Source: Catajapyx aquilonaris (lineage: Eukaryota). Taken from it: 34,011 nt of DNA. Position 1 is the first letter of the stretch, and every line of letters begins with the position of its first letter. The translations under genes were made by a program, and so were the position numbers. Of the stretch, positions 7,175 through 34,011 are shown in pieces. The DNA lies in contig KZ539096.1 of NCBI GenBank assembly GCA_000934665.2, positions 1 through 34,011 of the forward strand. The letters are read 5' to 3'. A model generated the notes under the pieces. It was not told the DNA's origin. It ran no database searches and saw only the letters and a list, made by a program, of their open reading frames with translations.

Positions 7175-7333
7175 TCACTTCCGGTCCGCCCCTTCCGCTT
7201 CCGCCTTCTGCATGGCCTCCTTCATGACGTATCCCATGTATCTGAAGAGCTGCATCCATGCCTCCTGCAGTTCTTCTGTCCATTTGTCCTCCAGGGACGG
7301 TCGGATAGCCAGCACAAACTGCGGTCCGATCAA
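7175..7333 (-). CDS. GbX: Globin X-like gene, coding exon 4 (helices G-H and stop)
   Basis: Acceptor cattttgatag|. Translates LIGPQFVLAIRPSLEDKWTEELQEAWMQLFRYMGYVMKEAMQKAEAEGADRK*, with the WT.E...AW..LF helix H motif. The four exons total 666 nt, i.e. 221 aa plus stop. Confidence 0.92.
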   Translation of the reverse strand: MIGPQFVLAIRPSLEDKWTEELQEAWMQLFRYMGYVMKEAMQKAEAEGADRK

Positions 7334-7668
7334 CTATCAAAATGGATAACAACAATGGAAATGAATAAGGTAGCAGACCTACAGGAGCGCCTCTGGTGGA
7401 GGATAATTTGAGCTTCAGTTTTTATACCCATTTTGCACCCACTTTACCACGTGAAGGTCCGAATTGGATCCAGACTTCAAAATTAATTCTGGAGGCCATT
7501 ACTGGAGCTAAATGTGCTAGCTTTTAGCTCGTAGTTTTCCTTCACAGAGGCCTGGTGGCCTGGGGGTGGGGCTGCAGCAATTAGCCTCTTGCTGCGCCAT
7601 GATGATGAACGCATTCACTAGGGTCTCTATGATTCAAAGCTGTGTTTTTGTCTGGGGGGGGGGGGGGG

Positions 7669-7730
7669 NNNNNNNNNNNNNNNNNNNNNNNNNNNNNNNN
7701 NNNNNNNNNNNNNNNNNNNNNNNNNNNNNN
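7669..7730. other. Assembly gap
   Basis: Run of N flanked by poly-G and poly-T. Confidence 1.
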
Positions 7731-9260
7731 TTTTTTTGTAGACATTAATATTATGATTCTATGCCAAAATTTGTGATTGATCACGTAACTGCCAATAGCT
7801 GCTGTTGAAGCTATTTTTAAGCACTCGAATTTCGATCCAACCCAGAAAAACAATCAAATCACCTTCACAGGTTTCCAATATCAATTGACTACCCCGAATC
7901 CTTACAAGAGCGAGGCACTTGTCAGGCTTTGCCGTGACCTTTTTTTTTTGTCCGTTGCAAGCCTTTTGTAGCGACCAATTTTCGCCTACGCTTATTTCAT
8001 AGGCTGACTGATAGAACAATGTCAACCACAGAGCAGAATACCATTGTTCGCTTTCAATTATCCGCTTCAAAGATTCTTCATTGTTCCTGAACCAGCATCA
8101 TAACTGAAATGTTCTAGACTATTCATCGCTTTGATAGCATGAATATTGTTGATATCACATGTACGGGAACTGCCAGATAGGCCCACTTGACTTTTATCTT
8201 TTGTCAGAGATTTTTCAGCCATATCATGTATGACAATTGATGGAAAAGCACTCTAGCATACCTCCAAATTTCCGACAGGAAAGACCAAGTTGTATTATTT
8301 ATTCAAGCTGCATCTCCAAATAATATATGACTTTCTTCGTACTGATATTGAAAACTAGAGTGCACCATCTGCATTCAATTCCAAGTGAGTGTATAGCCTC
8401 AAACTGGGCATGTGCTTTTAAACTATTCCACGAATTCATGCTGAAGCCTTTCAGCACTAATTAACACGAGATTAGACAACGAGAATTCTCAGAGAAAGCC
8501 ATCAAAATCTGAAAGCTCGACTATAGTTTCAAATCCGATTTTGAATCCCACAGCCTTTGTTTATTCACCCGCAAATATTATTAGCTTAGTCTGAAATAAT
8601 CCGCCTTTCCACACAGAACACTTCAGCACAGATTGTTCTATTAAAACGACTGTAATCATCCAGATTAATTTGATATCGAGGCGGTTACAAAATCAGGACA
8701 ATTAGGCTACAGGTTGACCCTTTTGAGGTAAACCTCAAACTGCAATTAGCATCTATACTTAACTGTGAAATGAGAAGCCATATTGAATTCTTCCAGTGAA
8801 ATTCATGCTTTTGTCTCAAAACCCTTGTTTAAAACCTGTACGAAAATTTCCATCAGCAATGTTGCTTTTCACAACAGACAAAAGCCTACCTGCCGTGTTT
8901 CTTAATCTTTCCAAGAATGTAACAAATCATCTTCAGGCTCCAAAACCATCCATTGCTTATAAGCTTCTTTTTACTCGAGTAGGCCACCGCCTGATTAAAA
9001 CCAGGAACGCAAGAAATGTGAGCCCCTTGGGTATGCTCTTGAATAAAATAACATGAACAAAAAAAAAACCTTTCCTAGACTACAGGGTCCTATGATCTTC
9101 TTAAGCCAGAAGGCTTTTGGTAGACAAAATGAGGCGGTTCAAATTGGAATTTATGGCGGCCTTGGATGATATGGCGGCGGGTATAAAGTCATAGCATTAG
9201 TTTATTTCTTGTAGAGAACTCTCTTCTTTCTAAGACTGTGGAAGATTTGGAAGGACTTAC

Positions 9261-9381
9261 GTCGATGTAGTTCTTCTTGGCTCCGTAGAAAAAGTGGTTC
9301 CTTCCCAGGTCCTTAAGCAGGGTGTCCAGTTTGTCCGGGACATGCAGTCTGGCTACAGCTTTCTGGACAAAAGCCATCACT
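9261..9381 (-). CDS. GbX: Globin X-like gene, coding exon 3 (helices E-G)
   Basis: Acceptor ctattgcag|A completes CGA. Translates VMAFVQKAVARLHVPDKLDTLLKDLGRNHFFYGAKKNYID with proximal His F8 (LGRNH). Donor GAC|GTAAGT (phase 0, G7.0). Confidence 0.93.
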
Positions 9382-9902
9382 CTGCAATAGTTTAGTGGCA
9401 GGATCAAGCCTGGATCTGAGGAGATTACTCTGGACATGCATCTTGGAGCTTCAGAGTGAGCCACATGAGAGCAGCACATTCACTAGCAACTATGCTGCTT
9501 CTGGTGGGCAAATTAGTAAAGTTCATATATGCTCTCATCAAGAGCTAATCATTTATTAAAACTATTAATAATTAATTGCTATAACTATAGTACCCACAGC
9601 ATAACATCTCAAAAAGTAAGTGGCTATGTTACATTGCTGATCAAAGGTTACAGCAACAGGAGACGCCATCTTGTTTACATCTTGACGCGCACAAACTAAA
9701 ATCAAAGTTCAGTACGGTCTAGTGAAGTTTGAGTGAAACTACAGCTTCAAAGGCTTCAAGGCGGATTATTAAGACCAAAAGCTACTGTTAAAAGCGCCTC
9801 TTATTGTAGGCTCCCTTTATGGGATCTGGGTCTATGTGGACTGACGGCAAAACGTGATTGATCGATCAAAGTCTGACAAGACGTCATATTTTCAGTTCTT
9901 AC

Positions 9903-10007
9903 CGGAGAGCGTGTGCTCTAAGCTGCTTGCTGTGCTTCAATTCTTCCACTTCGATTCCGCTGAAGGGCATGAACACTTCCTTCACGTCTGGATGCGTCTC
10001 GAACAAC
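9903..10007 (-). CDS. GbX: Globin X-like gene, coding exon 2 (helices B-E)
   Basis: Pyrimidine tract ttccttttccaacccaacag| completes the codon AA+G. Translates (K)LFETHPDVKEVFMPFSGIEVEELKHSKQLRAHAL(R), with Pro C2, Phe CD1 and distal His E7. Donor CG|GTAAGA (E10.2). Absent from the ORF track because it is short. Confidence 0.92.
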
Positions 10008-10613
10008 CTGTTGGGTTGGAAAAGGAAAGAGTGTTAAGGGGACGCCACCGCTAGAGGGCACCGCATAAAAAGGTACACGTGGGTGAACTTAATTTAAGTG
10101 TGTTATCGAAGTTTCATGAACCTGCAGGAGCGTTAATGCAAAACGTATTTAATTCCCGCAGTAGATTATTCGTGGTAACATTTCAAATTGAAGTATGAGG
10201 GAAGGCAATTCAAGTTTGAAGCCCCGAGACACGAGTAAAGAGGCCGCCTCCGACATGGTGTCGCGGTTACATTAGTCGCGACTCTTGTAACCGCAGCCAA
10301 AGCCGACGCTTGACTTCCAGCTACTTTTTGTTACGAGAATTACGAGAGGTTGGGTATAGAGTTGAAGTCTCGCTAGCTGATGGAAAAGCGAGACTTCAGA
10401 GACCCCGAGAGAGTAACAAAAAGGCTGCAATTTGGGAGCAGAAAAGTCGCGCTCGTTATTTTTCACAACCAGTCTTAAAGTCCCTTTAAAGTTGCATTCA
10501 ATGGCAGTTTAAATTCACATGGACACACAAACAAACTTTGCCTTTATAATAGCAGAGAAAAGTAAAATAACGAAATTACTTGAAATTGAAAAGTTTGTTA
10601 AAGTTTGCAATTT

Positions 10614-10799
10614 CTAGCGATTCACCCAATCCTTCAACATATTTTCAAAAAGTTTTCCAGCCAGTCTGAACAACTTTCTTGATCTATCCGGACCACCCGG
10701 AATGTTGCCTTTCTGAATCCATTTCCACAGCTCCATATCTGACTCCACGGGTGAGGCTGGATAAATCCTTTTCCGGAGTCTATGGGCCTGACTATTCAT
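10614..10799 (-). CDS. Possible 61-aa small protein, divergent from the DUOXA-like gene
   Basis: True ATG, a possible acceptor (ctttcatgtag) just upstream, a GC-richer island in AT-rich intron and protein-like composition. No family recognised. Confidence 0.3.
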   Translation of the reverse strand: MNSQAHRLRKRIYPASPVESDMELWKWIQKGNIPGGPDRSRKLFRLAGKLFENMLKDWVNR

Positions 10800-11116
10800 T
10801 AGTTGCTACATGAAAGAGCCATTGCAGGGAGTGGCGGGGGAAGCTCTATTTCTGCCCTTATTTTCTTATCTACTTAACATTTCAACGTGTACTTTGCCCC
10901 TTCGGCCATATTTTCAGAAATATAATTAGTTGGCCTGGGGAAGGTTACTGGTGGAAAAGTATACAGGGTTGTTTGGGAAGTATGATGTGGCCACCGAGTT
11001 GCTATTAGTTGTTGGCAACTATGAACAAATAAATTATTAATAACAATCGTGTTACCCTGGCCAACTTAATGTGTTTACTTCCATTGTTGCTGAAGGAGAT
11101 TTTTGTTCTTTTGCAG

Positions 11117-11204
11117 CGAGATAGTTCGAAACCAGCAAAAGACATTAGTGGCATGAGAGCTGTGGGCAACATATTTCCCGTCTAGTTACCACCCAAAGCT
11201 GCAG
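11117..11204 (+). other. Putative 5' leader exon of the DUOXA-like gene
   Basis: Strong acceptor ttttgttcttttgcag| at 11101-11116 and donor CAG|GTAACG at 11205. The next acceptor, aatttccag| at 11311-11319, precedes the ATG at 11346. Confidence 0.45.
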
Positions 11205-11345
11205 GTAACGTACAGGACACACTCTGTCTTAAAAATGAGTAGATATGACTATTCTATAAAGCCGAATGTACGCAGTACAGTGGCGTTCAGGTGAAAGTTA
11301 ACAATGTGTAAATTTCCAGCTGCCAACAATTAGCACGATTCGAGC

Positions 11346-11536
11346 ATGGCAAATGCAGGCGGCTTGGTGGTGTTGTCCTACCACCTGGTCATCATCATAT
11401 TACTGGCGTATGTCATAGGGTCAGACAGATGGGAACATGGATATGCCAGGGTGCTCATCCCCTACAACAAGCAGGACATAGAGTTTGAGATTTTCTTAGG
11501 CATTGGGCTCTCCGATTACGAACTGCAAGCCATAGG
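11346..11536 (+). CDS. DUOXA: DUOXA-like (dual oxidase maturation factor/NIP/moladietz family) gene, coding exon 1
   Basis: MANAGGLVVLSYHLVIIILLAYVIGSDRWEHGYARVLIPYNKQDIEFEIFLGIGLSDYELQAIG: a TM helix followed by the S.W..G.....PY...I...IGL pattern of DUOXA. Donor GG|GTAAGA (phase 2) opens a 100-bp intron, 11537-11636. Confidence 0.82.
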
Positions 11537-11636
11537 GTAAGAGGATCATAGCCATGCTCTCATTACTTAGTAACGCACTCATAATAAGCAGATAAACTTA
11601 TAACAGCTTATAATTATTGGTGTGGGTTTTGCTCAG

Positions 11637-14600
11637 GCACGACAAGATTCAGGGTGCGAGCGTGGAGTTCAAGAAAGAGTTTCCATGGCGAGACGCGGTG
11701 AAGATGAAAATTGGCGAAGGCGATCTGATCGTGAGGCAGCACCAGGACGCGGTCGCACGCGGCTACCCGCAGCCGGTGATCTGGGTTATGGAGTACCTGA
11801 TGGTCAACAAGGAGGGAGTCCAGTATGGTCGGAACTACCGTATGGCCGGGTGGTACAGCTATTGCTTCCTGTCCACCGCCATGTTCACCTGGACTGCAGG
11901 GTACTTCCTCTCCTTCGCACTGGTGGGGATATACGCCCAGTGGGTAGCCACGACCGGGATGTTGATGCTGGGCGCCTCCGCTGTGTTCAGGTTCCACCGG
12001 AGCCCTTACTCCGACATGCGCGTACCGCTGTACGGACCGGACTTCGACACCGCTTTCCTGCAACTGAGTTACGGCCCTCCCTTCTACTTGTCCATGTACG
12101 TCGGAGCCATCCTTGCCATCTGCGGGATGGTCCTGGTCTCGCTGGAGAAGAGTAGGCCGGCGATTGTCAACAGGTTCTTCGGCATCAAAACAGCGGTCAC
12201 GTACATTACGGAGTTGAGGAGGGAGAGAGTGCACGTGAAGATGAAGAAGAGGGGCAGGAAGAAGAGGGGGGAACCAAAGACGGTGGGATATGTGGATGAG
12301 TGGGTGGAGGAGCCGCCTGTGGCACTGGCCGCCTCGAGGCCTACAACGTCTCCACCGCCACCGTCGTCGCCACCCATGCCGTCTACACCGCAGTCGTGGT
12401 CACCACTGTCTTGGGTATCATCGCTGGGGTCCCAACAGCCGCCGCCTCCAGCGGGCGTGGGCATGGAGGAAGAGATGGAGCAGAAGAGTCCTTCCCAGTC
12501 CTCCGATGGCACGTCGAGGAGCGGTAAGACCAGCGGTACGGAGCAGGAGAGTTTGCTGTCTTGGTTGTCTCACGGCAAGCCGAGGGGCCGAAAGACAAGC
12601 CAAGGGAGCGATTCTTGGTTGTCCCACGAGGATGAGACGAGTAGCGGAAAGACAAGCGGTGCGGAGGAGGAAAGTGACTCCCAATCGTTGGGAGAAGCGT
12701 GGATAACCGGAGACAGTGGCAGCGGTCAGGAACGGAGGAGAGTGTCACAGTCGTCCGAGACCAAGTCTGGGAGCAGTAAGACTACCGGTAGCCATCAGGA
12801 CAGTACGTCCCAGTCGTCCGAGGTCAAGTCCAGGAGCGGAAAGACAAGCGAAACCGAGGAGGAGACTACGTCCAGGTCGTCCGAAAGCAAATCTTGGGGC
12901 GGAAAGACAGGCGGGACCCAGGAAGAGAGTGAGTCCAGGTCGTCCAAGGTCAAGTCGAAGAGCCAAAAGACCAGCGGTGGGGAGGAGAGCAGTGAGTCCC
13001 AGTCGCCCGAGGTCAAGCCAAGGCGCAGAAAGAGCAGCGATTATTGGCATGACAGTCTGTCCGCCCAACCGACAAGCGGGAATCAGGACGAGACTACGTC
13101 CAGGTTATCCGAAAGCAAGTCGAGGGGCGGAAAGACAAGCGGGACCCAGGCCGATACTACGTCCAGGTCGACTGAAAGCAAGTTTAGCGACGGAAAGACA
13201 AGCGGTACCCAGGACGAGACTACGTCCAGGTCGACCGAAAGCAAGTCGAGGGGCGGAAAGACAAGCGGTACCCAGGAGGTGAGTACGTCCAGATCGACCG
13301 AAAGCAAGTCTAGGGGTGGAAAGACAAGTGGTACCCAGGACGAGACTACGTCCAGGTCGACCGAAAGCAAGTCTAGCGACGGAAAGACAACCGGTACCCA
13401 GGACGAGACTACGTCCAGGTCGACCGAAAGCAAGTCTAGCGACGGAAAGACAAGCGGGACCCAGGACGAGACTACGTCCAGGTCGACCGAAAGCAAGTCC
13501 AGGGGCGGAAAGACCAGCGGGACCCAGGAGGAGAGTACGTCCAGGTCGTCCGAAAGCAAGTCGAAGAGCCAAAAGACCAGCGATGGGGAGGAGGACAGTA
13601 CGTCCCAGTCGTCCGAGGTCAAGTCAAGGAGCAGAAAGAGCAGCGATGATGGGCGGGACAGTGTGTCCAGGTCGTCCGAGAGAAAGTCTAGGGGAGGGAA
13701 GACCAGCGGTGGGGAGGAGGACAGTGCGTCCCAGTCGTCCGAGGTCAAGCCAAAGAGCAGAAAGAGCAGCGATGATGGGCAGGACAGTGTGTCCAGGTCG
13801 TCCGAGAGAAAGTCTAGGAGAGGGAAGACCAGCGGTGGGGAGGAGGACAGTGCGTCCCAGTCGTCCGAGGTCAAGCCAAAGAGCAGAAAGAGCAGCGATG
13901 ATGGGCAGGACAGTGTGTCCAGGTCGTCCGAGAGAAAGTCTAGGAGAGGGAAGACCAGCGGTGGGGAGGAGGACAGTGCGTCCCAGTCGTCCGAGGTCAA
14001 GCCAAAGAGCAGAAAGAGCAGCGATGATGGGCAGGACAGTGTGTCCAGGTCGTCCGAGAGAAAGTCTAGGAGAGGGAAGACCAGCGGTGGGGAGGAGGAC
14101 AGTGCGTCCCAGTCGTCCGAGGTCAAGCCAAAGAGCAGAAAGAGCAGCGATGATGGGCAGGACAGTGTGTCCAGGTCGTCCGAGAGAAAGTCTAGGAGAG
14201 GGAAGACCAGCGGTGGGGAGGAGGACAGTGCGTCCCAGTTGTCGGAGGTCAAGTCGAGGAGCAGAAAGAGTAGCGATGCAGGGCAGGACAGTGTGTCCCA
14301 ATCGTCCGAGGTCAAGTCGAGGAGCAGGAAGAGCAGCAATGCAGAGCAGGAGGGTGTGTCCCAATCGTCCGAGGTCAAGTCGAGGAGCAGGAAGAGCAGC
14401 GATGCAGAGCAGGAGGGTGTGTCCCAATCGTCCGAGGTCAAGTCGAGGAGCAGGAAGAGCAGCCATGCAGGGCAGGACAGTGCGTCCCTGTCTCCCGAGG
14501 TCAAGCCAAGGCGCAGAAAGAGCGGAGATGTTTGGCAAGACAGTCTGTCCAGGTCGTCCGAGAGCAAGTCTAGGGGAGGGAAGACCAGCGGTGGGGAGGA

Positions 14601-15342
14601 GGACAGTGCGTCCAGGTCGTCTGAGGTCAAGTCGAAGAGCAGAAAGAGCAGCGATGATGGGCAGGACAGTGTCTCCAGGTCGTCTGAGAGAAAGTCTAGG
14701 GACGGAAAGACCAGCGGTGGGGAGGAGGACAGTGTGTCGGAGGTCAAGTCGAGGAGCAGAAAGAGTAGCGATGCAGGGCAGGACAGTGCGTCCCAATCGT
14801 CCGAGGTCAAGTCGAGGAGCAGGAAGAGCAGCGATGCAGAGCAGGACAGTGTGTCCCAATCGTCCGAGGTCAAGTCGAGGAGCAGGAAGAGCAGCGATGC
14901 AGAGCAGGACAGTGTGTCCCAATCGTCTGAGGTCAAGTCGAGGAGCAGGAAGAGCAGTCATGCAGGGCAGGACCGTGCGTCCCTGTCTCCCGAGGTCAAG
15001 TCGAGGAGCAGGAAGAGCAGCGATGCGTCGAAGTCGTCCGAGGTCAAGTCTAGGGGCGGAAAGAGCAGCGCTCCCGACCAGATGAGTTTATCCGAAAGCG
15101 AAGACTCGGATTCCCTGGATGTGTACGAGGATGCGGAGTCAGGGTCGATGCCCCCGAGACGTCGAAGGCTCACCTCGGTGGAACTTAAGGACCTCAGCAT
15201 CCACTTCCAGCTGCCTGATGAAGAACAGGAGCCTCCTCTGCGCCAGATTACTGCCAAGCAGAAGAAGCAGAAAAAGAAGAAGAAGCGTCATGAGGATGAC
15301 GAAGACCCCATTTGCGGATGGTGCGGGCTCATGTGGTGCTAG
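11637..15342 (+). CDS. DUOXA: DUOXA-like gene, coding exon 2: rest of the DUOXA domain plus ~1000 aa repetitive Ser-rich tail
   Basis: Acceptor ttttgctcag|G completes GGG in frame. Motifs EFPWR, AVARGYPQPVIWVMEYL, EGVQYGRNYRMAGWYS, TTGMLML and YGPPFYL...G.....G match DUOXA (ALxxGLPxPI/VLxxAEYF, YRxAGxY, GxxFW/Y). Three more TM helices follow. Stop TAG at 15340-15342. Confidence 0.85.
12500..15070 (+). repeat. Coding tandem repeat, 63-bp/21-aa unit with a 126-bp/42-aa higher-order array (13696-14199)
   Basis: Units such as SGTQDETTSRSTESKSRGGKT. Four near-identical copies of GKTSGGEEDSASQSSEVKPKSRKSSDDGQDSVSRSSERKSRR start at 13696, 13822, 13948 and 14074, with a partial fifth from 14200. Confidence 0.95.
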
Positions 15343-15457
15343 AACTGAACCATTCTTGCGATTCAAGAGGACGCAGAATGAAGGGTCGTATGTGCAAGTG
15401 ATGGAGTAGTTAATTTTCACCTCAGATTTTAAAGTGTTACTGAGTCTTTTGAATTGT

Positions 15458-15505
15458 AATAAAGTCAGTTACATGTTCATGTAGCAGCAGAGTCTGCCGA
15501 ATAAA
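15458..15505 (+). terminator. Polyadenylation signals of the DUOXA-like gene
   Basis: AATAAA at 15458-15463 and 15500-15505, ~115 and ~160 bp after the stop. Confidence 0.6.
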
Positions 15506-18500: not shown

Positions 18501-18651
18501 AGGGGGTGGTACCCAATATCACAATCGACACACTTTTTCGTCACATCACATCGGGGATATGAGCTGATGATGACCCCTAGACACACGCGGCAACACACCG
18601 ACTTGCGCTCTCAATAAGCTATGGGGACGTTGAAAACACAACTTTTCGAAG

Positions 18652-18934
18652 CTAGTGTAAATTAACTTTACACTAGGTTTACGCTAGGTTTACACTAGGT
18701 TAGGTTAGGTTAGGTTAGGTTATAACGTAACGTAACCTAGGTTAGTTTAGTTTAGGTTAGGTTAGGTTATAACCTAACCTAACCTAGGCTGAGAGAAATG
18801 GACTTCTGTGAAACCCTGCAAATCGAAATTGTGAGGCCATGTCCCCCCACTATAACGGTAACGTTATGGTGTGTGAAGATGTGGGGACCCAAAATGTCCC
18901 TACAAGAAAAATTGTGGGGACACTAGTCCCCACA
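18652..18934. repeat. Interstitial (TTAGG)n telomere-like palindromic block, probably inside a non-autonomous DNA element
   Basis: TTAGG/CCTAA runs at 18695-18788, a perfect 34-bp palindrome at 18753-18786, three 11-bp TTTACRCTAGG units, and the hairpin TGTGGGGAC-acta-GTCCCCACA at 18913-18934. Confidence 0.7.
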
Positions 18935-21900: not shown

Positions 21901-23270
21901 TTACTTCAAAAAAAAAAAAAAAAACGGATAATTTTTTGGGCCCAATTGCAGCAAAAAGGTGGTGGGTTTATGGATGAGTTGGCTTTTTTTTTTGGCAAAA
22001 ATGCGTATTTGCAATGTTTTTCCCTACAAAGGACCGCCGCTTTGAATAACTGTCGGAGAAAGGTATGGAGTGAAATATGCAAATGGGTGTTTTCACGGTA
22101 AATGTGTGGGGAAATATGGCGTGCCTGGAGTAATATTCAGACATTGCAAAAAGTTTGCGTTCCGAGCGAATTCGTGTTTTTTTTTAAAACACTGCGGTTG
22201 TTATGAGTTGCAGGCTGGTGGAAATGGTAGTCTGTAGACTATAAAGGCTATAGTGTGCATAAACAGTGATTCCTTTAGGTGCATATATGAGCAATATTTG
22301 GACTTAGGCTAAATTGAAAAAAAGAGTAATCGCAATCAGCAATTTTCTGAAACTGATTTTATGTCGAAAAATTAAGTTGGCAACCTGCAACTGTCAGGAA
22401 TTTCTTTCAAAAAAAAACTTGTCGTATATTTGAAAGGAAGTCTGCTCGTATAGCAACGACTTTTGTAAGACATTCTAAGAGTTAGGATTAGGAATTTTAA
22501 CCTTTACAAGACGCCTCCCAATTTCCAATCTAGCCTAGTAGTACCCTGGTCCTTTTACAAGTTGCGAATAGTTTCCTGATTAATTTGGCTGCTTTTGAAC
22601 CGCGAACATGGACCTAGAAGGGATATCATAGTTTTTTTAAACAAAAAATCTGGGTAAAAAAAAGGTGGAGATGAAGTGTAACATATTTGAATAGGCATTA
22701 ATTATCCTTGCTGGAAGTAATGTCCCGAAATTGTGTTTTCGTTGTATAATAAGTCCACAGTATAGGCTGCATAATGTTGATGTTAAAATATTTTAATGCA
22801 TCCCATTATAACTTTATTTATTTTATGTTTTTACGAGAATCTTTCCCTTTATATTTCCTATATACTGATTATTATAATTATCATTATGATTATAATTTAA
22901 TATTCCATCTCTACTCGAGTGCGTCAGCTCCAGCTTTGAAACCTACAGTATACATTTCAATTTCGAAATATCCTGCAGCTAGCTTCATTCATGCAACAAA
23001 CCATTACCTTTTATATGGTACACGAATATTCTTCCCTCGAATATTTCTCTCGGGGAATATTTCATTCCAGGTCTGCCTCGGAAATCCCACATTCAGACCT
23101 ACCCTGTGGAATTCCAGGCTGAGGTACAGTATAGTATGATACATGCCTTCCCTTCAATTAACACCCTGAAAAAAAAACCTGCCAAATTTTTCCAACCTAA
23201 TAATCAGCATCCCTATTGGACTATTGCACGATTACAGTCATGCTAGAATTCGATTACATTCCCCCCCCCC

Positions 23271-23302
23271 NNNNNNNNNNNNNNNNNNNNNNNNNNNNNN
23301 NN
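23271..23302. other. Assembly gap
   Basis: Run of N within poly-C. Confidence 1.
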
Positions 23303-25390
23303 CCCCCCCCCCCCAGCCAGATGAAATTGCCTACTAGATTTTTTTTTTGAAGAGGGCTTTGGAATATTCGAATATTATCGTGGCAAAAAGAAGGTCCTAA
23401 ATAAATCCGGATAGAAGGGACTATGAAGCGACAGCAGGTTCAAACTCCAAGGGGATCCCTAACTCATACACATGCACACACACATTTAAAAAAATTTAAT
23501 AAAGAGTGGATATGAATTCTGGTGCTGCCAAAATATGCGGTTCAGAGGCGGCTCGTATGGCGTGGGAGGATCGATTCCCATTTCCAACATATTTCACTTT
23601 TGTATGGGGGGAGGATTATAAGCCGGAAATAATTCGGTTATTTTGCATGTTTGATCTTCAGTGCATTTTAAGGTTTGGATCGTAATTTATGTGCAATATA
23701 AGTGGTCAAGGTAGTTGTGGAAATTGCGTTTAGCAATGTTTATCGCATTGCAATATCAGTTAGATGGCTTAAATTGTTGCTCTGTTACACCTGGTTTAAC
23801 CGGTGACCATACTGAAAAATGATTTAAAAAAATCGACATTATAATGTAATTATGTAGTGAAAAATAACAGCATCTGCAATGTAGTTGCTAAACAATAATT
23901 GTGTTTGTGTTTTTTAAATGACCCATTAAAAACCCATCATTGTCATAACTAAGCCACATATTGCCAGAACAAGGGAATTATTCAAAAAATAAAAGCAGAA
24001 AAATTAAATTATCAATCTACTTCAATTAATCAGAATTTTTAGAAGGTGTCAACAATTAATAAATAATTTGTTGATTGAATTTAACTGAACCTGCTATTAC
24101 ATGATCACAACAAAGTGAATTACTAAAACGAGAACAATGCAAAATTAATTACCTATGTACAGTACACGTAGAGCAAATACCTATACCCATTAAACTTAAA
24201 TGTAATTTTATTTCAGGATCGCAGTCCCTGTTTGTTCAAAAGTCGTCAAGTCAGACTCATTTTCTCAAAATTGTCTGACTTATCACTTCCTAAAGTTTCA
24301 GACGCCAGAACTTCCCCTCCGAGTCTTCCAATTTGCACATTATTGGCGTATATATACCTTGAGCCACAGCAACAAAAGGGCCAGGTTTCAAATTAGGTCT
24401 CACGGATAACTTATGCTCAAAATACAACTTCCAGGCCGAGATTATAACATGACCCGAGCTTATAAAGTACGCTCATGTTCAGACGAGTTATCCTTCATCA
24501 TCGTCAAAATACACGATGAAAAAAAAATTGGCGTACTTCACAATAATGATGCGCGGTTCGAAGGTTAATTAGCGGATGAGCTTTCACATTTTGCAAAATA
24601 CGGCTGGTTCATTGTGGGGTTTGAATTAAGGCTGGTTTTTTGCCATTCATATTCGTCTCCGCAGATTCAGTGCCAGTCAAAAACATTCTTCTCGTTCGTT
24701 TGGGGGGCCAGAAGTCCATCAACTTAGTCCAAATTTAAAAAATCTGGACAAAATTGATCCTGGTATTTGTGCACATCTGTATGAAACACCCTTGTATATA
24801 CCATCTGGTTCCATTTCATCCCAGCAAATATTGGAATCGGCTGAGTCCACAATGCAAACAGCACAAATGTACCGCAGTGTGGACATCATCGATCTGACTT
24901 GATTTTTATGTATCCGAAAAAAATGCATTTTTCCATCATCTAAATGGTCCAGTCGACTAAACTGTCCAGGTTAGTTTGTTAAAAAAATAGTTGAACACTG
25001 TTCAACAATGTGAGCTTCCTGCGGTTTAATTAATGCTGTAATTTATCATCTTGTCTGCAGTCATTGTTGCTCCTGTCTGTGAGGTATTTCAATTGTGTTA
25101 CATCATACCTTTACTCCAGCAGACTATTGGTGTCGGAGCAATTTGAAACTCAATCGATATAATAGTCGTGAACACCTGTTGAGCCCCCATATTCTCAAAC
25201 GCAACAGTCGACAACAATTATCCAATAATATCACGACTAAATAAAAACTGCAACTGTGACAGCAACATCAAAAGAAATGCAGTCCTTTGTCATACACATT
25301 TCACACATGTCTACTGTACAGTATCATACTGAACCTGAAGCTTGGCAGTCTAACTTAATTGCAATTGCAGTCATTTATATTTTTAATTAA

Positions 25391-25688
25391 TTCATACGAG
25401 ATCGTGGAATTTTCATACGAGATCGTGGAATATTCATACGAGATCGTGGAATTTTCACACGAGATCGTGGAATTTTCACATGAGATCGTGGAATATTCAC
25501 ACGAGATCGTGGAATTTTCACATGAGATAGTGGAATATTCACACGAGATCGTGGAATATTCATACGAGATCGTGGAATATTCATACGAGATCGTGGAATT
25601 TTCATACGAGATCGTGAAATTTTCATACGAGATCGTGGAATTTTCATACGAGATCGTGGAATATTCATACGAGATCGTGGAATTTTCA
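25391..25688. repeat. 21-bp minisatellite, 14 copies
   Basis: Unit TTCAYAYGAGATCGTGGAATW repeated head-to-tail with no spacers. Confidence 0.97.
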
Positions 25689-26407
25689 ACTTGAAAAGTC
25701 ATAAACTTTTCTGCATGTTGGTACACCGCTGCTGAGTAACGTACAGTATCCATTCCCCCCCCAAAAGTCTCTAAAATATCTACTTTCCCCACATTGTTTT
25801 CACACACTGTGCAAACTACACTTAATTTCAAATCCATCTGGGCCCGAGGCACCATATACGTTACAGTGTATCGAGCAAGACTGTGTTTAGCCAGGTCTTG
25901 CTTTGTGCATTGAATTCAGATTCTAAAGGGAGTATGGACTATGGGGAATTATCGTTTAGCTCTATCATAGCACAAAAGGGAATTGGGAAATTATATTCCA
26001 GTGGGGGGAATTGCGCAGATGTATCAAAATCTAGGCCAGAAAATTAGTCACATTTTCGAACCACCTCTGGGTGGTATACCGCACTATAAACCGGGCGTCA
26101 TTAATTAATAAATATAGTGGCCAGCGTTCAACTGAACATAATTTCATTGCAATCCCCCGCAGATGTCCGTACCTGTAATTACATCATATTCCCGGAAATG
26201 TTCATGATCTCTCTCATCTGATAGGAAATCAGCTTAGGCTTATTAGGGAAATTGATCCGGATCCGAGCTTACCAATCGAACAAAACCGGATTGACTTGTT
26301 GCGCATGGTAGTTACTCCCAAGTAATTACTGAGCCTAAGTCCCTAAGAGGGAGGCTGAGTCTTTAACTCTATTAAAGAGCACATTTCTTATCGGGTCCAC
26401 TAATGTC

Positions 26408-26668
26408 CATAACTCACATAGAGGCTGTGAGTTATGCCCGTTTATGTGAGTTCGCTTCATATTTTTCAGATTTTTACAAAACAGAAAATAATATGTACGC
26501 ATATTATTTTCTGTTTTGTAAAAATCCGAAAAATATGAATATGTCCGCTATGACGTCATATGAGAGAGGCAGTAGTCCTGGTAGTGGCATAAGCCCGGGG
26601 GTTTAAGTCAGACAGAGTTCGCTTCATATTTTTCGGATTTTTACAAAACAAAAAATAATATGCGGACA
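26408..26668. repeat. Foldback/inverted-repeat element
   Basis: 40-bp arms at 26456-26495 and 26500-26539 (one mismatch, TACG loop), a third direct copy of the arm at ~26615-26662, and an 11-bp stem at 26408-26418/26426-26436. Confidence 0.8.
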
Positions 26669-29600
26669 GATTTCCGATTCTGTTGATGTGTAGGGTATAT
26701 ATGATTTTCTTCCACGAGTTATAACCTGAACCTCTTTAAAATATGGCTTCCAGACTCCATTGACTCCGACACACGACTGCAAACAGTAGTGAACGCATCG
26801 CCGGAGCAGAGAATCCTTTCAATACCCATCAACCCTTGCGCAGTTTGAATGAGGCAAGAGAAGGATGCCCCGCTTCCAAACTGGAGGATTGTCATGGAAA
26901 TGGTACCCGTGGATGCAATCTGGTTCCACGGGAACACTTCTTTTCTGTGGGCGTCTGCTGGAAACCCAAGGTGGAATTTGTAGTGATTGTGCGCTTCGCG
27001 GTGTTGCCCGTTTCTACATCGCGCGACCACATCCGGGGAAACTTGTTTTGGAAGCGACGCCAACGCCCCCGGTGGTGGCCGCCGTTTGATTCAATCCCTG
27101 ATGCTGGAAATTATGTTACACCTCAGTGGTGTGTCCATTATTCGTGTAATTAACAGTTCTCTGTCAGTTGAAAGGGGGGGGGGGATGGGGGGTAACTAGA
27201 TTTTGAGTTTTCAAAGAGCGCACTTTAGGCTTTGAATTTTACACCTGGTAACAGTGTGATGCAATTTTGTTGCTGATGGCGGTTGGGAACCACATTCCCA
27301 GAGGGGATGAAGAGTTTCCCTCCCAATGGACCAGTAACAAGATGTTAAGCAGTTCTGTTGTTGTTGGGGGAAACCCTGCATTGTATGCTTGGCATCCACT
27401 TACACTCTTGCGTAATTGGATGTTCAAACGCGGTTTAAGCTGGCACGTGATGTCATGAAATCAGACCTGCAAACGTCTAGGCCATTCACACCATAGGCTA
27501 CTAAAGAGTGTCAGGAAAATTCTGAAACACATGGTGTACCTCAGAAGCCCACACAAGCTTGTTGAGTATGGCAACCACGAAACATTCTCCGGAGCACCTA
27601 TATCAACACACAACGTAGAAAACATATGCTAAACATTGTGCAGAACTTACACAAGAATTGCGAAACTGATTTATGCGCAGGAAAGTGACACACTATTGAA
27701 AATTCATGTACCTAAGTAAAATGGGTTACATCATGCTATGATGATAGGTTGATTTGGTCGAATTTGGAGTTGATATTTTGCTGGCAGAAACTTTTGCAAA
27801 CTTGGGTCTTCCAACTCTTTGTAACAAAGTAACCTCCCGATGATGCGACATTACACTTTAACATTGAGTCTGAGAAACGAGGAGGGCTTGGGTCTTCATA
27901 AAATTACCGTTAAATGAGGACATCAACGGAACGTCCCGTAATGACGGCCGCGTAACTGTAGGAGTTTATTTTTGGCGGGACTCAAGATTCCGCTCGACAC
28001 TAATTTGCATTAATTAAGCAAATGAGGTTGCGGCGTTTATTGAATGTAAGTGCACTTTTGGAGTCTACTATTAAATTTGAAGGCTAGCTGGACCTTTTAC
28101 GCCATGTAATGAAGGCTAATGTCTAGAACGAACGTACTAACAACGTTTCTCTCATGAGCGAAAGTATTATAACGCTTCAATTTTACTGAGAACGTCCAAA
28201 TTAGGGGAAGTTTTTAAGTCACGACCTGCAAGTCAGGTAAATAGCAGCAGGATAAAATTTTAAAATAATGACAAAAAATTATTTGAATATTTGTTTGGGA
28301 CATTGGACATTTCATGTCCGTTGGTGTCACTTAATTTTTTATTTTATTTTATTTAAAAAAATTATGAGGCTCATTTTCATATCCCAAGTGCAGAGGGAAG
28401 TAATATTGACATGACTCTGTCGGTTAGGGCGTCCGCCAAATATCTACAGCTAATTACGTGAAGTTGTGTACCCTGTACAAACCACTTGGCTGAGAAGTGC
28501 GTCCGGGATTCTGACTTTTGGCCTTTGATGTCTAACCAGTTTCCAAGTTTGGGGATTGGCCTGGGTAATGATGATGACAAAACTGAGGCAGAATTGGAGG
28601 ACTGTTACATCTAACTGCGTTTTAATATAATTCGCAAACTACTTCATTACCTGTTAATTCTAGCCTTTACCACACAACCTTCGGAGTATAAGTACCTGGG
28701 GGTAATGATTGGTGCACTGATCATGCTAATTAGTGGTAATGTCATATGGCTTATGCAATGAAGGACAAACGTATATCACTCGAGCAAAGTGAAAAGGTTT
28801 TTATAAAAATTTGTCAAATAAATGCAACTTTTATTCGTTATTTCCACAGCGCACAAGGTCTTCCCTATAAAGTTCGACTGATGAAATCAAAAACTTTTCA
28901 TACAACTATGAACATCCTGCCAACTGGTAATTTAATATCAAGTTGTGGGTATTGGGTGGACATCATGTGCAGTACTTGCATTTGAAAAAACCCATTTGAT
29001 CCTAGTTATTAATTCAGTGTTCATAACCGGATTTTGGCTCCATTTTTGCAAAAAAATTAGCAACCTCTATTTAAAAAATCGCAATCACGACGTAATTGAA
29101 AAAAAAGTTCAGTACCCTTTTACTTATTGAAACCCCGGATCCTCCCTCCCCATAAAAGAGACCCCATCAAATAATGGCCTCCATAGCCATATGCCTGGTT
29201 ATTGCCCATGCAGAAGTTGCGCAGCAGGTGATCTTTCACCATTACTGCCACAGCCCGATATAAATAATCCACTGAAAACACCCGGTAGCTTATCTCACAA
29301 TAATGATGGGCTTCCATTGAAAAAAAAATAGTGCGGGTCTCACAAGGGGGGGATTCACACGTCTGAATAGTGCACTTCAAAAAGTGTTTTAAGCCAATTA
29401 GACACGCGTAACACTCTCTTGCATAATTTACACCGTCCATTTGGGCCACTTGCATGATGCAACCCATTTCTCATTACCTTTGATTGTTGCTGGTAATATT
29501 GTTAGTGGATCAAAGAAGCGCAATTTTTCACCCAGCTTCCGGCAGAAAATTTGCAACTACAATTTGCAATCCTAATGTAATCTTGATATAGTGATCTTCC

Positions 29601-29882
29601 GCCCACTGGGCGATAATCAATTCAGCATGCTATTGTCGCGTATTGTTATTCCAAAGAGATCGTTCCATTACGGGATTTTCGTTCGAGAAAAAAAAGTCAG
29701 TCATAATGCATGTATAATACAATTCCATTTGTTTCCCCCCCTCTAATTTAAATGATAATTTAAACATAGGGTGACGTGCAAAGTTTTTCGCGCTGCTGAA
29801 AAATTCATACCATGTGCATTTGGGAATATTTGTTTTCCTGTGGATTTGGGTTATGACCCTTTTTTTAGCGGTAGGTACTTAC

Positions 29883-30163
29883 TTGGTGAAGGTGATGACT
29901 CCAACTTTAGCAATGTTCTCTTCTAGTATCTTCCATGTGTCTTTGATGATCTCTGCTTGTCTCTCGCTCAGTACCGGCTTTTCTCCTAATGGCACATCCC
30001 CATTTGTTTGATTACCATCTTCCTTATCTTCCTCTCCACTTCCTCCTTCTTCATCTTCTTCTTCGCCTTGTTGTTGTTGTTCCTCGTCCGTCACTGACTT
30101 GGACGGAACCAACGAGGCCCTCTGCTGCCTCCCATCCTTTCCCTTATGCAACTGGTTACCCAT
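29883..30163 (-). CDS. GbX: Globin X-like gene, coding exon 1 (N-terminal extension plus helices A-B)
   Basis: ATG in the context ACCATGG. Translates MGNQLHKG...acidic stretch...LSERQAEIIKDTWKILEENIAKVGVITFT, matching globin helix A (LS..Q...I..TW) and helix B. Ends AA|GTAAGT (phase 2, conserved B12.2 position). Confidence 0.9.
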
Positions 30164-30266
30164 GGTTGCTCATTGGACACTCATGGCCACCATCGGAAGG
30201 AGGCCACCATCCTTCCTCACTGTGGCCTGGTCCACTTCTGGTAGCCCCTCCAAACGGGCTCATGGC

Positions 30267-30273
30267 TTTTATA
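30267..30273 (-). promoter_or_regulatory. Putative TATA box of the globin gene
   Basis: GGTATAAAAG on the minus strand in a GC-richer context, ~105 bp upstream of the globin ATG. Confidence 0.4.
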
Positions 30274-33462: not shown

Positions 33463-34011
33463 TCACGCTCCAGCAAAGTCCAAGTACTTGTCCGGTTCGT
33501 ACCCAAACAACTCGAAGTCCAGTTGGTACTTCATATACAGCCTCCGTACCTGCTCTTTGGTCAGAAGCTGAAAGTACTTTCTGGCCACATCCCCAGTGCT
33601 CTTCCCTTTGGTCAAATGCTTCCAGGTCGGCTTCAAGATCCGAGTCAGATTGGCCTTCCTGATAATGTACATCTGGTCATCCCGCAGTGTCTCCATTTTG
33701 GCTATGACATCATAGTCTACCCAGCATGGAGTCGCATGCAGGAAGAACGGTATCCAGTGGTCATCGCTTCTCTCGACCACATCCAGATCGCACAAGTAGC
33801 TCACAAACTCTGGAAATGTTGGTTCCACACCTTTTGGTGGTGGAATCCCATAGTCTCCTTCCAGAACACCCGGTGGATACCTCAAAGTGTTGTTGTCTTT
33901 CCGGTACTTGGCCACAATCTTCTGTCCATACTTCTTGTAGAAATGCTCAACCCCATGCTCCAGACCTACTCTAACGTTCTCAAGCTTATCCCTATAGGCG
34001 GACAGTAGTCG
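33463..34011 (-). CDS. Carbohydrate sulfotransferase (CHST11/HNK-1ST, Sulfotransfer_2 family), 3' part; runs off the window edge
   Basis: The frame is open from the edge: RLLSAYRDKLE (3'-phosphate-binding motif), PTFPEFVSYL, DHWIPF, PCWVDYDVIAKMETLRDD, YFQLLT..QVRRLY.KY.LDFELFGY. Stop at 33463-33465. Confidence 0.93.
   Translation of the reverse strand, partial: RLLSAYRDKLENVRVGLEHGVEHFYKKYGQKIVAKYRKDNNTLRYPPGVLEGDYGIPPPKGVEPTFPEFVSYLCDLDVVERSDDHWIPFFLHATPCWVDYDVIAKMETLRDDQMYIIRKANLTRILKPTWKHLTKGKSTGDVARKYFQLLTKEQVRRLYMKYQLDFELFGYEPDKYLDFAGA

What the first reader, a model, noticed from the sequence alone, without database searches (positions are those of the whole stretch)
7175..30163. DUOXA-like gene nested antisense inside a putatively membrane-anchored globin X-like gene: candidate ROS/redox module
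Seen: the globin's B12.2 intron (29882-10008, ~19.9 kb) holds a complete opposite-strand gene with a DUOXA domain. Established: DUOXA proteins are maturation partners of H2O2-producing dual oxidases; in vertebrates they are physically paired head-to-head with DUOX; and N-acylated GbX-type globins are membrane-bound and linked to ROS/NO handling. Inference: two membrane redox-related genes share one locus with no DUOX in this window, which could mean co-regulation or a globin-DUOXA functional link. I know of no description of this arrangement. It could also be a chance nested paralogue.
Basis: partly seen in the sequence, partly recalled or inferred. Interest (0 to 1): 0.8.

Follow-up and report, generated by a model that had tools for sequence, protein, structure and literature searches.

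The report
Divergent DUOXA-like gene inside globin X intron
A conserved arthropod membrane-type globin gene carries, inside its long first intron and on the opposite strand, a fast-evolving and shortened relative of the dual-oxidase helper protein with a huge serine-rich tail, and nothing found so far suggests the two genes work together.

Summary
On the minus strand, four exons (30163-29883, 10007-9903, 9381-9261, 7333-7175) give a 221-aa globin. It aligns end to end with arthropod globins at 59-68% core identity and has the gene structure published for arthropod globin X (introns B12.2, E10.2, G7.0; Met-Gly start, no Cys3). Its 19.9-kb first intron holds a plus-strand two-exon gene (11346-11536, 11637-15342; 1298 aa) with a Pfam DuoxA domain (E 3.8e-26) and a DUOXA1-like predicted fold.

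The "redox module" reading is not supported:
- The DUOXA-like protein is highly derived: 24-29% identity to relatives that share 47% with each other, and the longest branch in the tree.
- It lacks the N-terminal peptide and TM1 that contact DUOX1 in the solved complex, and it has no N-glycosylation sequon.
- It carries a ~1030-aa tail of 21-aa serine-rich repeats.
- No DUOX lies in the window.
- 0 of 12 related metagenome contigs with the globin's exon 2 hold a DuoxA-like ORF.

No RNA run was listed and no genome was held, so expression and true synteny remain untested.

Unchecked earlier notes of this scan describe two other divergent DUOXA-like genes beside unrelated genes elsewhere in this genome. 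The most likely reading is an incidental nested paralogue.

The parts
29883..30163 (-). Globin X coding exon 1: Met-Gly start, acidic N-terminal extension, helix A and helix B up to B12.2
   Evidence: Sequence and GTAAGT donor. Spliced model. Orthologue-only profile positions 7-80, E 4.3e-12.
10008..29882 (-). Globin X intron 1 (position B12.2), 19,875 nt, which holds the nested gene
   Evidence: Donor AA|gtaagt and acceptor cag|G. Outside the nested gene, no Pfam family passed its cutoff among the ORFs of this stretch that were scanned.
9903..10007 (-). Globin X exon 2 (B12.2 to E10.2; Phe CD1 and distal His E7)
   Evidence: Pfam Globin E 2.6e-6. 77-92% identity to arthropod globins. Profile E 1.2e-21.
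9261..9381 (-). Globin X exon 3 (E10.2 to G7.0; proximal His F8)
   Evidence: Splice sites ttgcag|A and GAC|gtaagt. Profile E 5.7e-20. Alignment.
7175..7333 (-). Globin X exon 4 (helices G and H, stop TGA)
   Evidence: Acceptor gatag|TTG. Profile E 2e-20.
30268..30273 (-). TATAAA 110 nt upstream of the globin ATG (promoter-like; inferred only)
   Evidence: Pattern search; sequence.
11255..11260 (+). TATAAA 91 nt upstream of the DUOXA-like ATG (promoter-like; inferred only)
   Evidence: sequence.
11346..11536 (+). DUOXA-like coding exon 1: start codon, single TM helix equivalent to canonical TM2, first strands of the claudin-like ectodomain
   Evidence: An in-frame stop lies just upstream. Donor GG|gtaaga. 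Own profile positions 86-137, E 6.4e-4.
11537..11636 (+). DUOXA-like intron (100 nt, GT..AG)
   Evidence: Reading through without splicing meets a stop (read from the sequence).
11637..15342 (+). DUOXA-like coding exon 2: rest of the ectodomain, three TM helices, ~1030-aa cytoplasmic tail, stop TAG
   Evidence: Pfam DuoxA 92.2 bits. PDB DUOXA1 E 3.5e-9. Model with pLDDT 82, and Foldseek top 3 hits are DUOXA1 chains.
12734..15026 (+). 63-bp (21-codon) tandem repeat array that codes the serine-rich tail; G+C up to 0.59
   Evidence: Tandem Repeats Finder. Composition.
15458..15505 (+). Two AATAAA signals (15458-15463 and 15500-15505), 116 and 158 nt after the DUOXA-like stop
   Evidence: Sequence.

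Best explanation
Two independent genes share the locus by accident of location.

The host gene is the conserved, normally single-copy arthropod globin X. It is a small haem protein with both haem histidines and a Met-Gly start. By analogy with published work it is probably N-myristoylated, attached to the inner face of membranes, and expressed mainly in nervous tissue.

Its long B12.2 intron has come to hold a lineage-specific, rapidly evolving paralogue of the dual-oxidase maturation factor. That paralogue keeps only the four-helix claudin-like core of DUOXA. It has lost the N-terminal peptide and TM1, and it has gained a ~1030-aa serine-, lysine- and glutamate-rich repetitive cytoplasmic tail.

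The nested gene appears to have its own promoter-like TATA box and its own poly(A) signals, and it is transcribed against the host. The most that the arrangement implies mechanistically is possible transcriptional interference.

Shown: both gene models, the nesting, the family assignments, the truncation and the divergence.
Inferred: expression, membrane anchoring of the globin, the function of the DUOXA-like protein, and independence of the two genes.
For: Globin:
- The spliced 221-aa product aligns without gaps at the exon junctions to 8 arthropod globins. Core identity is 59-68% for the 7 with complete cores and 48% for one mispredicted protein.
- 6 of those 8 start with Met-Gly.
- The gene has the B12.2/E10.2/G7.0 structure that Prothmann et al. 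2020 describe as typical of arthropod GbX. They also report that the myristoylation motif is kept and the palmitoylation motif lost (passages read).

Nested gene:
- Pfam DuoxA E 3.8e-26.
- The predicted fold matches DUOXA1 chains 6wxu_B, 6wxr_B and 7d3e_B at probability 1.00 and TM 0.55-0.56.
- Identity is 24-29% to 16 relatives that average 47% among themselves.
- It keeps only 33 of 67 near-invariant columns.
- Its terminal branch is 2.33, against a median of 0.66.
- It aligns only from position 87 of a 462-position profile built from 92 relatives. No six-frame ORF in the window matches positions 1-86 significantly.
- In the human complex, the N-terminal peptide and TM1 contact DUOX1 (Wu et al. 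2021, passages read).
- The best of 1.84 billion representatives is 30% identical, and 0 have E <= 1e-30.

Context:
- 0 of 147 scanned ORFs outside the repeat carry a DUOX-type domain.
- 0 of 12 related metagenome contigs with GbX exon 2 hold a DuoxA-like ORF. Five of them reach 2.0-4.9 kb upstream of exon 2, where the window has the gene at 1.3-2.3 kb.
- Unchecked earlier notes place two other divergent DUOXA-like genes next to unrelated genes in this genome.
- Intronic genes are about 6% of D. melanogaster genes (abstract of PMC3786989, seen in the listing).
Against: - No RNA evidence at all: no run was listed, so neither gene model nor any expression relationship was tested.
- True synteny could not be examined, because no eukaryotic genomes were available.
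- The 12 contigs show only five distinct exon-2 peptides, and eight of them share one.
- At least L001 is intronless and therefore uninformative. Several other contigs reach less than 2 kb into the intron.
- Both proteins are membrane-associated and both families touch redox biology, so a link is not excluded.
- Evidence for selection on the tail is weak. Third-position differences exceed first and second at repeat lags of 126 and 252 nt, but not at 63 nt.
- The claim that there are further paralogues in this genome rests on unchecked AI notes.
Confidence: 0.75

Rival explanations
1. Functional redox module. The globin and the DUOXA-like protein are co-regulated or interact physically. For example, a membrane-bound globin might handle the H2O2, superoxide or NO produced by an oxidase that the nested gene helps to mature.
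For: Both products are predicted to be membrane-associated. Published work links GbX to ROS protection (Prothmann et al. 2020 citing Koch and Burmester 2016, passage) and links DUOXA to H2O2 production. The two genes share one locus.
Against: - The nested protein lacks the DUOX-contacting N-terminal peptide and TM1.
- No DUOX lies in the window.
- There is no close orthologue of the nested gene, although the globin is conserved at 59-68%.
- 0 of 12 related contigs show the pairing.
- The arrangement is antisense inside an intron, not a shared bidirectional promoter.
- 0 papers hold both 'DUOXA' and 'globin X'.
Confidence: 0.06
2. The nested gene is not a working protein gene as modelled. It could be a decaying paralogue, or the G+C-rich 63-bp array could be a minisatellite that stays open by chance and is not translated as a tail.
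For: - The N-terminus is truncated and half of the near-invariant family columns are changed.
- Other frames on both strands are also open across the purine-rich array, for example 600-aa and 624-aa frames.
- The excess of differences at codon position 3 is weak and is absent at lag 63.
- No transcript evidence.
Against: - One frame alone runs uninterrupted for 3.7 kb from the DuoxA core through the array to a unique C-terminal end.
- The repeat period is 21 codons.
- The core scores 172 bits against the family profile and folds confidently, with pLDDT 82.
- A TATA-like box, a clean 100-nt intron and AATAAA signals are in place.
- Other invertebrate relatives in the library also carry long serine-rich tails, for example proteins of 592-659 aa.
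Confidence: 0.12
3. Regulatory nesting without a protein-level link. Antisense transcription of the nested gene through the host intron lowers or gates globin X expression, or the reverse, so that the two are expressed in mutually exclusive cells.
For: The nested gene starts only 1.3 kb from globin exon 2 and is transcribed against the host. Transcriptional interference by nested genes is described in the literature (title and abstract of PMC3192792, seen in the listing).
Against: Nothing was tested directly. This applies in principle to any nested antisense pair and needs no redox connection.
Confidence: 0.1

Closest known systems
Arthropod globin X (GbX) as defined by Prothmann et al. 2020 (PMC7457136)
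   Same: - Four coding exons with introns at B12.2, E10.2 and G7.0.
- An N-terminal extension that starts Met-Gly and has no Cys3.
- Both haem histidines and Phe CD1 present.
- 59-68% core identity to hemipteran, orthopteran and springtail proteins, close to the 68% average the paper gives for GbX.
   Different: - Residue 6 is His, where the commonly used myristoylation pattern (recalled) expects a small residue.
- The extension is unusually acidic.
- The first intron is 19.9 kb and holds another gene.
- I did not build a tree with labelled GbX and GbXL sequences.
DUOXA1/DUOXA2 of vertebrates and their invertebrate orthologues (Pfam DuoxA PF10204; PDB 6wxr, 6wxu, 7d3e; fly mol/NIP recalled)
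   Same: - Pfam domain well above its cutoff.
- Predicted claudin-like core that superposes on DUOXA1.
- Conserved motifs around the ectodomain-TM3 junction.
- Cytoplasmic C-terminal tail.
   Different: - No N-terminal peptide and no TM1, so four helices instead of five.
- No N-X-S/T sequon in the ectodomain.
- 24-29% identity where relatives share 47%.
- A ~1030-aa tail of 21-aa repeats.
- Not adjacent to a DUOX gene.
Vertebrate DUOX/DUOXA head-to-head gene units
   Same: A DUOXA-family gene is physically coupled to another membrane redox-related gene.
   Different: There, the partner is the client enzyme and the two genes diverge from a shared promoter. Here, the partner is a globin, the DUOXA-like gene lies antisense inside an intron, and its start is 18.5 kb from the globin's start.
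Other divergent DUOXA-like genes noted in this same genome (earlier notes e1-7708900 and e1-7595665; unchecked)
   Same: They are described as fast-evolving, N-terminally shortened or four-pass, and lying on the opposite strand within or between unrelated genes.
   Different: The neighbouring genes differ: one copy lies in an IR8a intron and the other between DEG/ENaC genes. I could not see their sequences, so relatedness to this copy and the presence of a repeat tail are unknown.
Ordinary nested (intronic) genes of insects, e.g. 2mit in an intron of timeless2 (PMC3786989, abstract only)
   Same: A protein-coding gene lies wholly inside one intron of a host gene, in the opposite orientation.
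   Different: None in kind. The only special feature is that both gene families have been connected with redox biology.

Membership tests
Arthropod globin X (GbX) | Globin domain with haem-contact residues (Phe CD1, distal His E7, proximal His F8) | tested here: met
   Pfam Globin on exon 2: 28.3 bits against a cutoff of 22. PDB nerve haemoglobin 8oup_A: E 1.5e-4. The residues are seen in the alignment.
Arthropod globin X (GbX) | Four-exon structure with introns at B12.2, E10.2 and G7.0; the E10.2 intron distinguishes GbX from GbXL | tested here: met
   The Lys codon is split AA|G two residues before Phe B14. The Arg codon three residues after His E7 is split CG|A. A phase-0 intron lies before the helix G segment. 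The criteria are from PMC7457136. I mapped the helix numbering by hand.
Arthropod globin X (GbX) | N-terminal Gly2 myristoylation motif, usually without a Cys3 palmitoylation site | tested here: inconclusive
   Met-Gly is present and Cys3 is absent. 6 of 8 relatives start Met-Gly. Residue 6 is His, which does not fit the PROSITE-type pattern as I recall it. No predictor was available.
Arthropod globin X (GbX) | Orthology to labelled GbX sequences in a phylogeny | not tested
   Only pairwise identity was measured, 59-68%. The database names of the relatives are generic (cytoglobin-2, neuroglobin-like, globin CTT-Y-like).
Arthropod globin X (GbX) | Membrane attachment and brain expression | not testable with these tools
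   No RNA run was listed.
DUOXA (dual oxidase maturation factor, Pfam PF10204) | DuoxA domain above the curated cutoff | tested here: met
   92.2 bits against 23.3, but only profile positions 115-277 of 279 on exon 2. The spliced first 300 aa score 172 bits on a profile built from 92 relatives.
DUOXA (dual oxidase maturation factor, Pfam PF10204) | Claudin-like four-helix core with an extracellular domain | tested here: met
   AlphaFold2 model of the exon 2 part: pLDDT 82, pTM 0.73. The top three Foldseek hits are DUOXA1 chains, followed by claudins at weak scores. The model lacks the helix coded by exon 1.
DUOXA (dual oxidase maturation factor, Pfam PF10204) | Extracellular N-terminal peptide plus TM1 (five-helix topology) that contact DUOX | tested here: not met
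   The alignment starts at profile position 87 of 462. An in-frame stop lies directly upstream of the ATG. No window ORF matches positions 1-86; the best has E 1.8 and lies in the wrong place. The role of these elements is from PMC7794343. A very divergent upstream exon cannot be excluded without RNA.
DUOXA (dual oxidase maturation factor, Pfam PF10204) | N-glycosylation sequons in the TM2-TM3 ectodomain | tested here: not met
   The window's ectodomain (residues ~25-130) has no N-X-S/T, read from the protein printed. The near-invariant Asn and Thr of the first sequon are replaced, and most of the 16 relatives also carry a second. Those columns are listed as changed.
DUOXA (dual oxidase maturation factor, Pfam PF10204) | Genomic pairing with a DUOX gene (a vertebrate feature) | tested here: not met
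   0 of 147 ORFs of at least 58 aa outside the repeat hit a peroxidase, ferric-reductase, FAD- or NAD-binding family. The window covers only 34 kb.
DUOXA (dual oxidase maturation factor, Pfam PF10204) | Promotes ER exit and activity of DUOX | not testable with these tools
   This needs heterologous co-expression.
Conserved functional gene pair (module) | Arrangement conserved in related genomes | tested here: inconclusive
   0 of 12 metagenome contigs with GbX exon 2 have a DuoxA-like ORF. Only 5 of them reach 2 kb or more into the intron, and the 12 show only five distinct exon-2 peptides, eight sharing one. No eukaryotic genomes were available.
Conserved functional gene pair (module) | Correlated expression or physical interaction | not testable with these tools
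   No RNA run was listed. I sent no complex prediction because I do not claim binding.

The most novel reading that the evidence does not exclude
This arthropod lineage has spun off a family of DUOXA-derived four-helix claudin-like proteins that no longer serve DUOX. They would have lost the DUOX-gripping N-terminal peptide and TM1, and would now act as auxiliary or trafficking subunits for other membrane-associated proteins. Their gene copies would sit inside or beside their clients' genes: IR8a, DEG/ENaC channels, and here globin X. The giant phosphorylatable tail would act as a scaffold at the membrane. A variant of this reading pairs them with the catalytically dead Duox paralogue noted elsewhere in the genome.
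Probability: 0.04. Interest if true: 0.75.

Novelty: new variant of a known kind. Interest (0 to 1): 0.27.

Why it matters
If the two genes really formed a module, it would link a membrane globin to regulated peroxide production. That would give the long-unexplained globin X a testable partner. The evidence here points the other way, so the pairing itself is probably of no functional weight.

What remains of some interest is the nested gene. It is a DUOXA relative stripped to its claudin-like core and fused to a ~1000-residue repeat tail, apparently one of several such copies in this genome. That raises the question of whether DUOXA-type proteins can acquire functions unrelated to dual oxidase.

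The globin annotation adds one more well-supported arthropod globin X gene, with an unusually long first intron.

Tried and rejected
Searches that gave nothing or could not run:
- Whole-genome search for DuoxA in the window's own assembly: no genome is held.
- RNA evidence: no RNA holder was listed for window 7100-12400.
- Word-index homologue searches found nothing for the DuoxA core among longer proteins or for globin exon 4.
- The exon 2 query of 34 aa was too short. I sent it again as the 44-aa open frame that contains it.
- The metagenome scan with the DUOXA-like core found 39 pattern matches, and none encodes a relative.
I replaced it with an alignment of 7 orthologues.

Leads that turned out to be nothing:
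- Two weak DuoxA-profile hits upstream of GbX exon 2 in L008 and L006 (E 0.083 and 0.81) are translations of dinucleotide repeats. I rejected them.
- I considered an upstream frame starting at 11153 as a decayed original N-terminus. I dropped it because the family profile gives no match there and the resemblance rested on recall.
- Apparently N-terminally short relatives in the library (for example P0008, P0014, P0026) look like partial gene predictions. They are not evidence for a four-helix subfamily.

Negative background checks:
- Rfam and tRNA scans of the window gave 0 matches each.
- Literature: 0 papers hold both 'DUOXA' and 'globin X'. The listed results showed nothing on DUOXA paralogue expansions in arthropods or on nested DUOXA genes.
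- Look-ups of earlier scan notes by sequence, nearby place and relatives returned nothing.

Not run: complex prediction, because I do not claim that the proteins bind.

Full report
**What the window is.** The DNA is animal-type, with about 40% G+C and a G+C-rich island of up to 0.59 at 11-16 kb. It has spliced genes and an interstitial palindromic run of TTAGG-type repeats at 18696-18788. TTAGG is the usual arthropod telomere unit (recalled). Earlier notes of this scan call the genome arthropod-like. No whole genome is held for it.

**The globin.** Reading the minus strand and splicing in a script gives four coding exons: 30163-29883, 10007-9903, 9381-9261 and 7333-7175.
- All are bounded by GT and AG. 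The donors are gtaagt, gtaaga and gtaagt, and the acceptors follow pyrimidine-rich runs.
- The total is 666 nt, coding 221 aa.
- Pfam Globin passes its cutoff on exon 2 alone (28.3 bits against 22). On exon 3 it is below the cutoff (E 0.083). Exons 1 and 4 give no hit on their own.
- Exon 2 best matches a nerve haemoglobin among solved structures (8oup_A, E 1.5e-4).
- A database search with the 44-aa frame holding exon 2 returned 10 proteins from 13 candidates, 77-92% identical. They are named as globins of planthoppers, a leafhopper, a katydid and the springtail Folsomia candida.
- The spliced product aligns end to end with 8 of these, without gaps at the exon junctions. Core identity is 59-68% for the seven with complete cores and 48% for one mispredicted protein.
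- 6 of the 8 begin Met-Gly.
- A profile made only from 7 orthologues finds four significant matches in the six-frame translation of the window. All are on the minus strand, in order, and cover profile positions 7-205 of 209. The next best match has E 2.2.

So exon 1 at 29883-30163 is the only candidate in the window, and the 19,875-nt first intron is as real as homology can make it. Reads were not available: no RNA holder was listed.

**Which globin.** The first intron splits a Lys codon after its second base, two residues before Phe B14. That is B12.2. The second intron splits the Arg codon three residues after the distal His, which is E10.2. The third is phase 0 at the start of the helix G segment, which is G7.0.

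Prothmann et al. 2020 (PMC7457136; I read passages) state the following:
- Arthropod globin X typically has exactly this four-exon structure.
- The E10.2 intron distinguishes GbX from GbXL.
- GbX is usually single-copy.
- GbX is absent from Holometabola and Acari.
- Most arthropod GbX proteins keep a myristoylation motif but have lost the palmitoylation site.
- The average core identity within GbX is 68%.

The window's protein fits all of these (Met-Gly start, no Cys3). One caveat is that residue 6 is His, which does not fit the usual myristoylation pattern as I recall it. Anchoring is therefore plausible but not shown. I did not build a tree with labelled GbX and GbXL sequences.

**The nested gene.** On the plus strand, an ATG at 11346 follows an in-frame stop.
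- Exon 1 runs to 11536 (donor gtaaga). A 100-nt intron follows. Exon 2 runs from 11637 to the TAG at 15340-15342.
- A TATAAA lies 91 nt upstream of the ATG. Two AATAAA signals lie 116 and 158 nt after the stop.
- The product is 1298 aa.
- Pfam DuoxA scores 92.2 bits (E 3.8e-26) on exon 2, covering profile positions 115-277 of 279.
- Mouse and human DUOXA1 are the only solved relatives (E 3.5e-9 and 1.4e-8).
- An AlphaFold2 model of the exon 2 part, built on an alignment of 41 sequences, has pLDDT 82 and pTM 0.73. Its top three Foldseek hits are DUOXA1 chains at probability 1.00, TM 0.55-0.56 and rmsd 2.5-3.4 Å. Claudins follow at weak scores.

So the family assignment is sound.

**How far it departs from DUOXA.**
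- A search of 1.84 billion representative proteins gave 209 hits at E <= 1e-3, 43 at <= 1e-10 and none at <= 1e-30. The best is 30% identical.
- The named clusters among the top hits are DUOXA1-like proteins of a crinoid, a scorpion, a tick, a bivalve, a starfish and a stick insect. No taxon is noticeably closer than another.
- Over the core, the window's protein is 24-29% identical to 16 relatives that average 47% among themselves. It keeps 33 of the 67 columns that are identical in at least 14 of the 16.
- In a quick maximum-likelihood tree of 41 rows, its terminal branch is the longest: 2.33 against a median of 0.66. Its placement is therefore unreliable.
- Against a profile built from 92 relatives of 330-560 aa, the spliced first 300 residues score 172 bits. 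They align only from position 87 of 462, which is the second transmembrane helix of the family.
- No six-frame ORF in the window matches positions 1-86. The best has E 1.8 and lies at 25241, beyond the gene.
- The alignment shows the same picture. The N-terminal peptide and TM1 are missing. The single helix of exon 1 lines up with canonical TM2. The conserved sequon columns of the ectodomain are replaced, and I see no N-X-S/T in the window's ectodomain (read).
- In the human DUOX1-DUOXA1 structure, the N-terminal peptide (F8, F10, Y11, K15) packs on the peroxidase-domain/membrane junction of DUOX1 and TM1 contacts preM1 and M1. The other four helices are claudin-like, and an ordered glycan sits on N109 (Wu et al. 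2021, PMC7794343, passages read).

The window's protein thus keeps the claudin-like core and has lost two DUOX-contacting elements. A four-helix topology with both ends in the cytoplasm is still consistent (inference).

**The tail.**
- After the last helix come about 1030 residues with 27.6% Ser and about 10% each of Glu and Lys.
- They are coded largely by a 63-bp (21-codon) tandem array at 12734-15026 with roughly 35 units.
- The strand is purine-rich and other frames are also long there, so openness alone proves little. However, only this frame runs uninterrupted from the DuoxA core to a unique C-terminal end.
- Differences between repeat units are somewhat enriched at codon position 3 at lags of 126 and 252 nt (0.150 and 0.146, against 0.083-0.112 at positions 1 and 2). 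They are not enriched at lag 63. This is weak evidence.
- Some other invertebrate relatives in the library also carry long serine-rich tails, for example proteins of 592-659 aa.

**Is there a module?**
- No DUOX-type domain occurs in the window. 0 of 147 ORFs of at least 58 aa outside the repeat hit such a family. Three further ORFs containing N-run translations were left out. An earlier scan of 22 ORFs gave only one sub-threshold hit.
- The nested gene's start is 1.3 kb from globin exon 2 and 18.5 kb from the globin's start, and the two genes are transcribed towards each other. This is not the shared divergent promoter of vertebrate DUOX/DUOXA (recalled).
- As a partial synteny test I fetched metagenome contigs that encode relatives. 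None was found for the DUOXA-like core. Twelve were found for the globin.
- None of the 12 holds a DuoxA-like ORF. The two weakest-of-weak hits were translations of dinucleotide repeats.
- Five contigs (L006, L010, L008, L007, L011) extend 2.0-4.9 kb upstream of exon 2, where the window has the nested gene at 1.3-2.3 kb.
- This negative result is limited. Eight contigs share one exon-2 peptide, and the 12 show only five distinct peptides. At least L001 is intronless and so uninformative. A gene deeper in the intron would also be missed.
- Literature searches found no paper with both 'DUOXA' and 'globin X'. The listed results showed nothing on nested DUOXA genes or arthropod DUOXA expansions.
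- Intronic genes are common in insects: about 6% of D. melanogaster genes (abstract of PMC3786989, seen in the listing).

**What the scan found before.** Unchecked AI notes on other pieces of this genome describe the following:
- a fast-evolving, N-terminally shortened DUOXA-like gene lying antisense in an IR8a intron (e1-7708900);
- a six-exon, four-pass DUOXA-like gene between DEG/ENaC genes (e1-7595665);
- a Duox paralogue with a dead NADPH site (e1-7683437);
- another nested antisense small gene (e1-7593773).

I could not see those sequences. If the notes hold, DUOXA-like copies are scattered next to unrelated genes, which favours chance location here.

**Verdict.** The host is the known arthropod globin X. 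The guest is a real-looking but strongly derived DUOXA-family paralogue. The redox-module idea has no positive support and several indications against it. Expression data and genome-scale synteny, neither available here, would be decisive.

Noticed in passing
window 33463-34011 (-): The 3' end of a carbohydrate-sulfotransferase-type gene (Pfam Sulfotransfer_2, E 2.5e-25, profile positions 93-252 of 252) runs off the window. It lies upstream of the globin on the same strand, and its stop is 3.3 kb from the globin ATG.
   Followed up: partly
window 18696-18788: A palindromic interstitial run of TTAGG-type repeats and their complement (period 47, 2 copies, 91% matches) lies inside the globin's first intron. 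This is the arthropod telomere unit (recalled).
   Followed up: no
window 25391-25688: A 21-bp minisatellite, 14.2 copies at 93% identity, lies inside the globin intron. Its translations give spurious sub-threshold Pfam hits.
   Followed up: no
window 7669-7730 and 23271-23302: There are two N runs of 62 and 32 bases. The first is flanked by poly-G and poly-T, and the second by poly-C on both sides. They look like unresolved or masked homopolymers rather than scaffold joins, so the intron lengths are approximate.
   Followed up: partly
window 30164-30273 (-): Between a TATAAA box and the globin start codon lie several upstream ATGs that open very short frames. The last one overlaps the start codon. 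If they are in the mRNA, they could damp translation (read).
   Followed up: no
window 11304-11333 (+): A nine-codon upstream frame lies between the TATA-like box and the DUOXA-like start codon (read).
   Followed up: no
window 15080-15342 (+): The unique C-terminal end of the DUOXA-like protein has an acidic stretch, a run of Lys and Gln, and a final Cys-rich segment with four Cys in the last nine residues. No family hit covers it.
   Followed up: no
L001 223-915; L002 613-1017: L001 carries a full-length globin X-like frame without introns on a 1,111-bp contig, so it is probably transcript-derived. L002 has the exon 2 and exon 3 parts contiguous, without the E10.2 intron.
   Followed up: no
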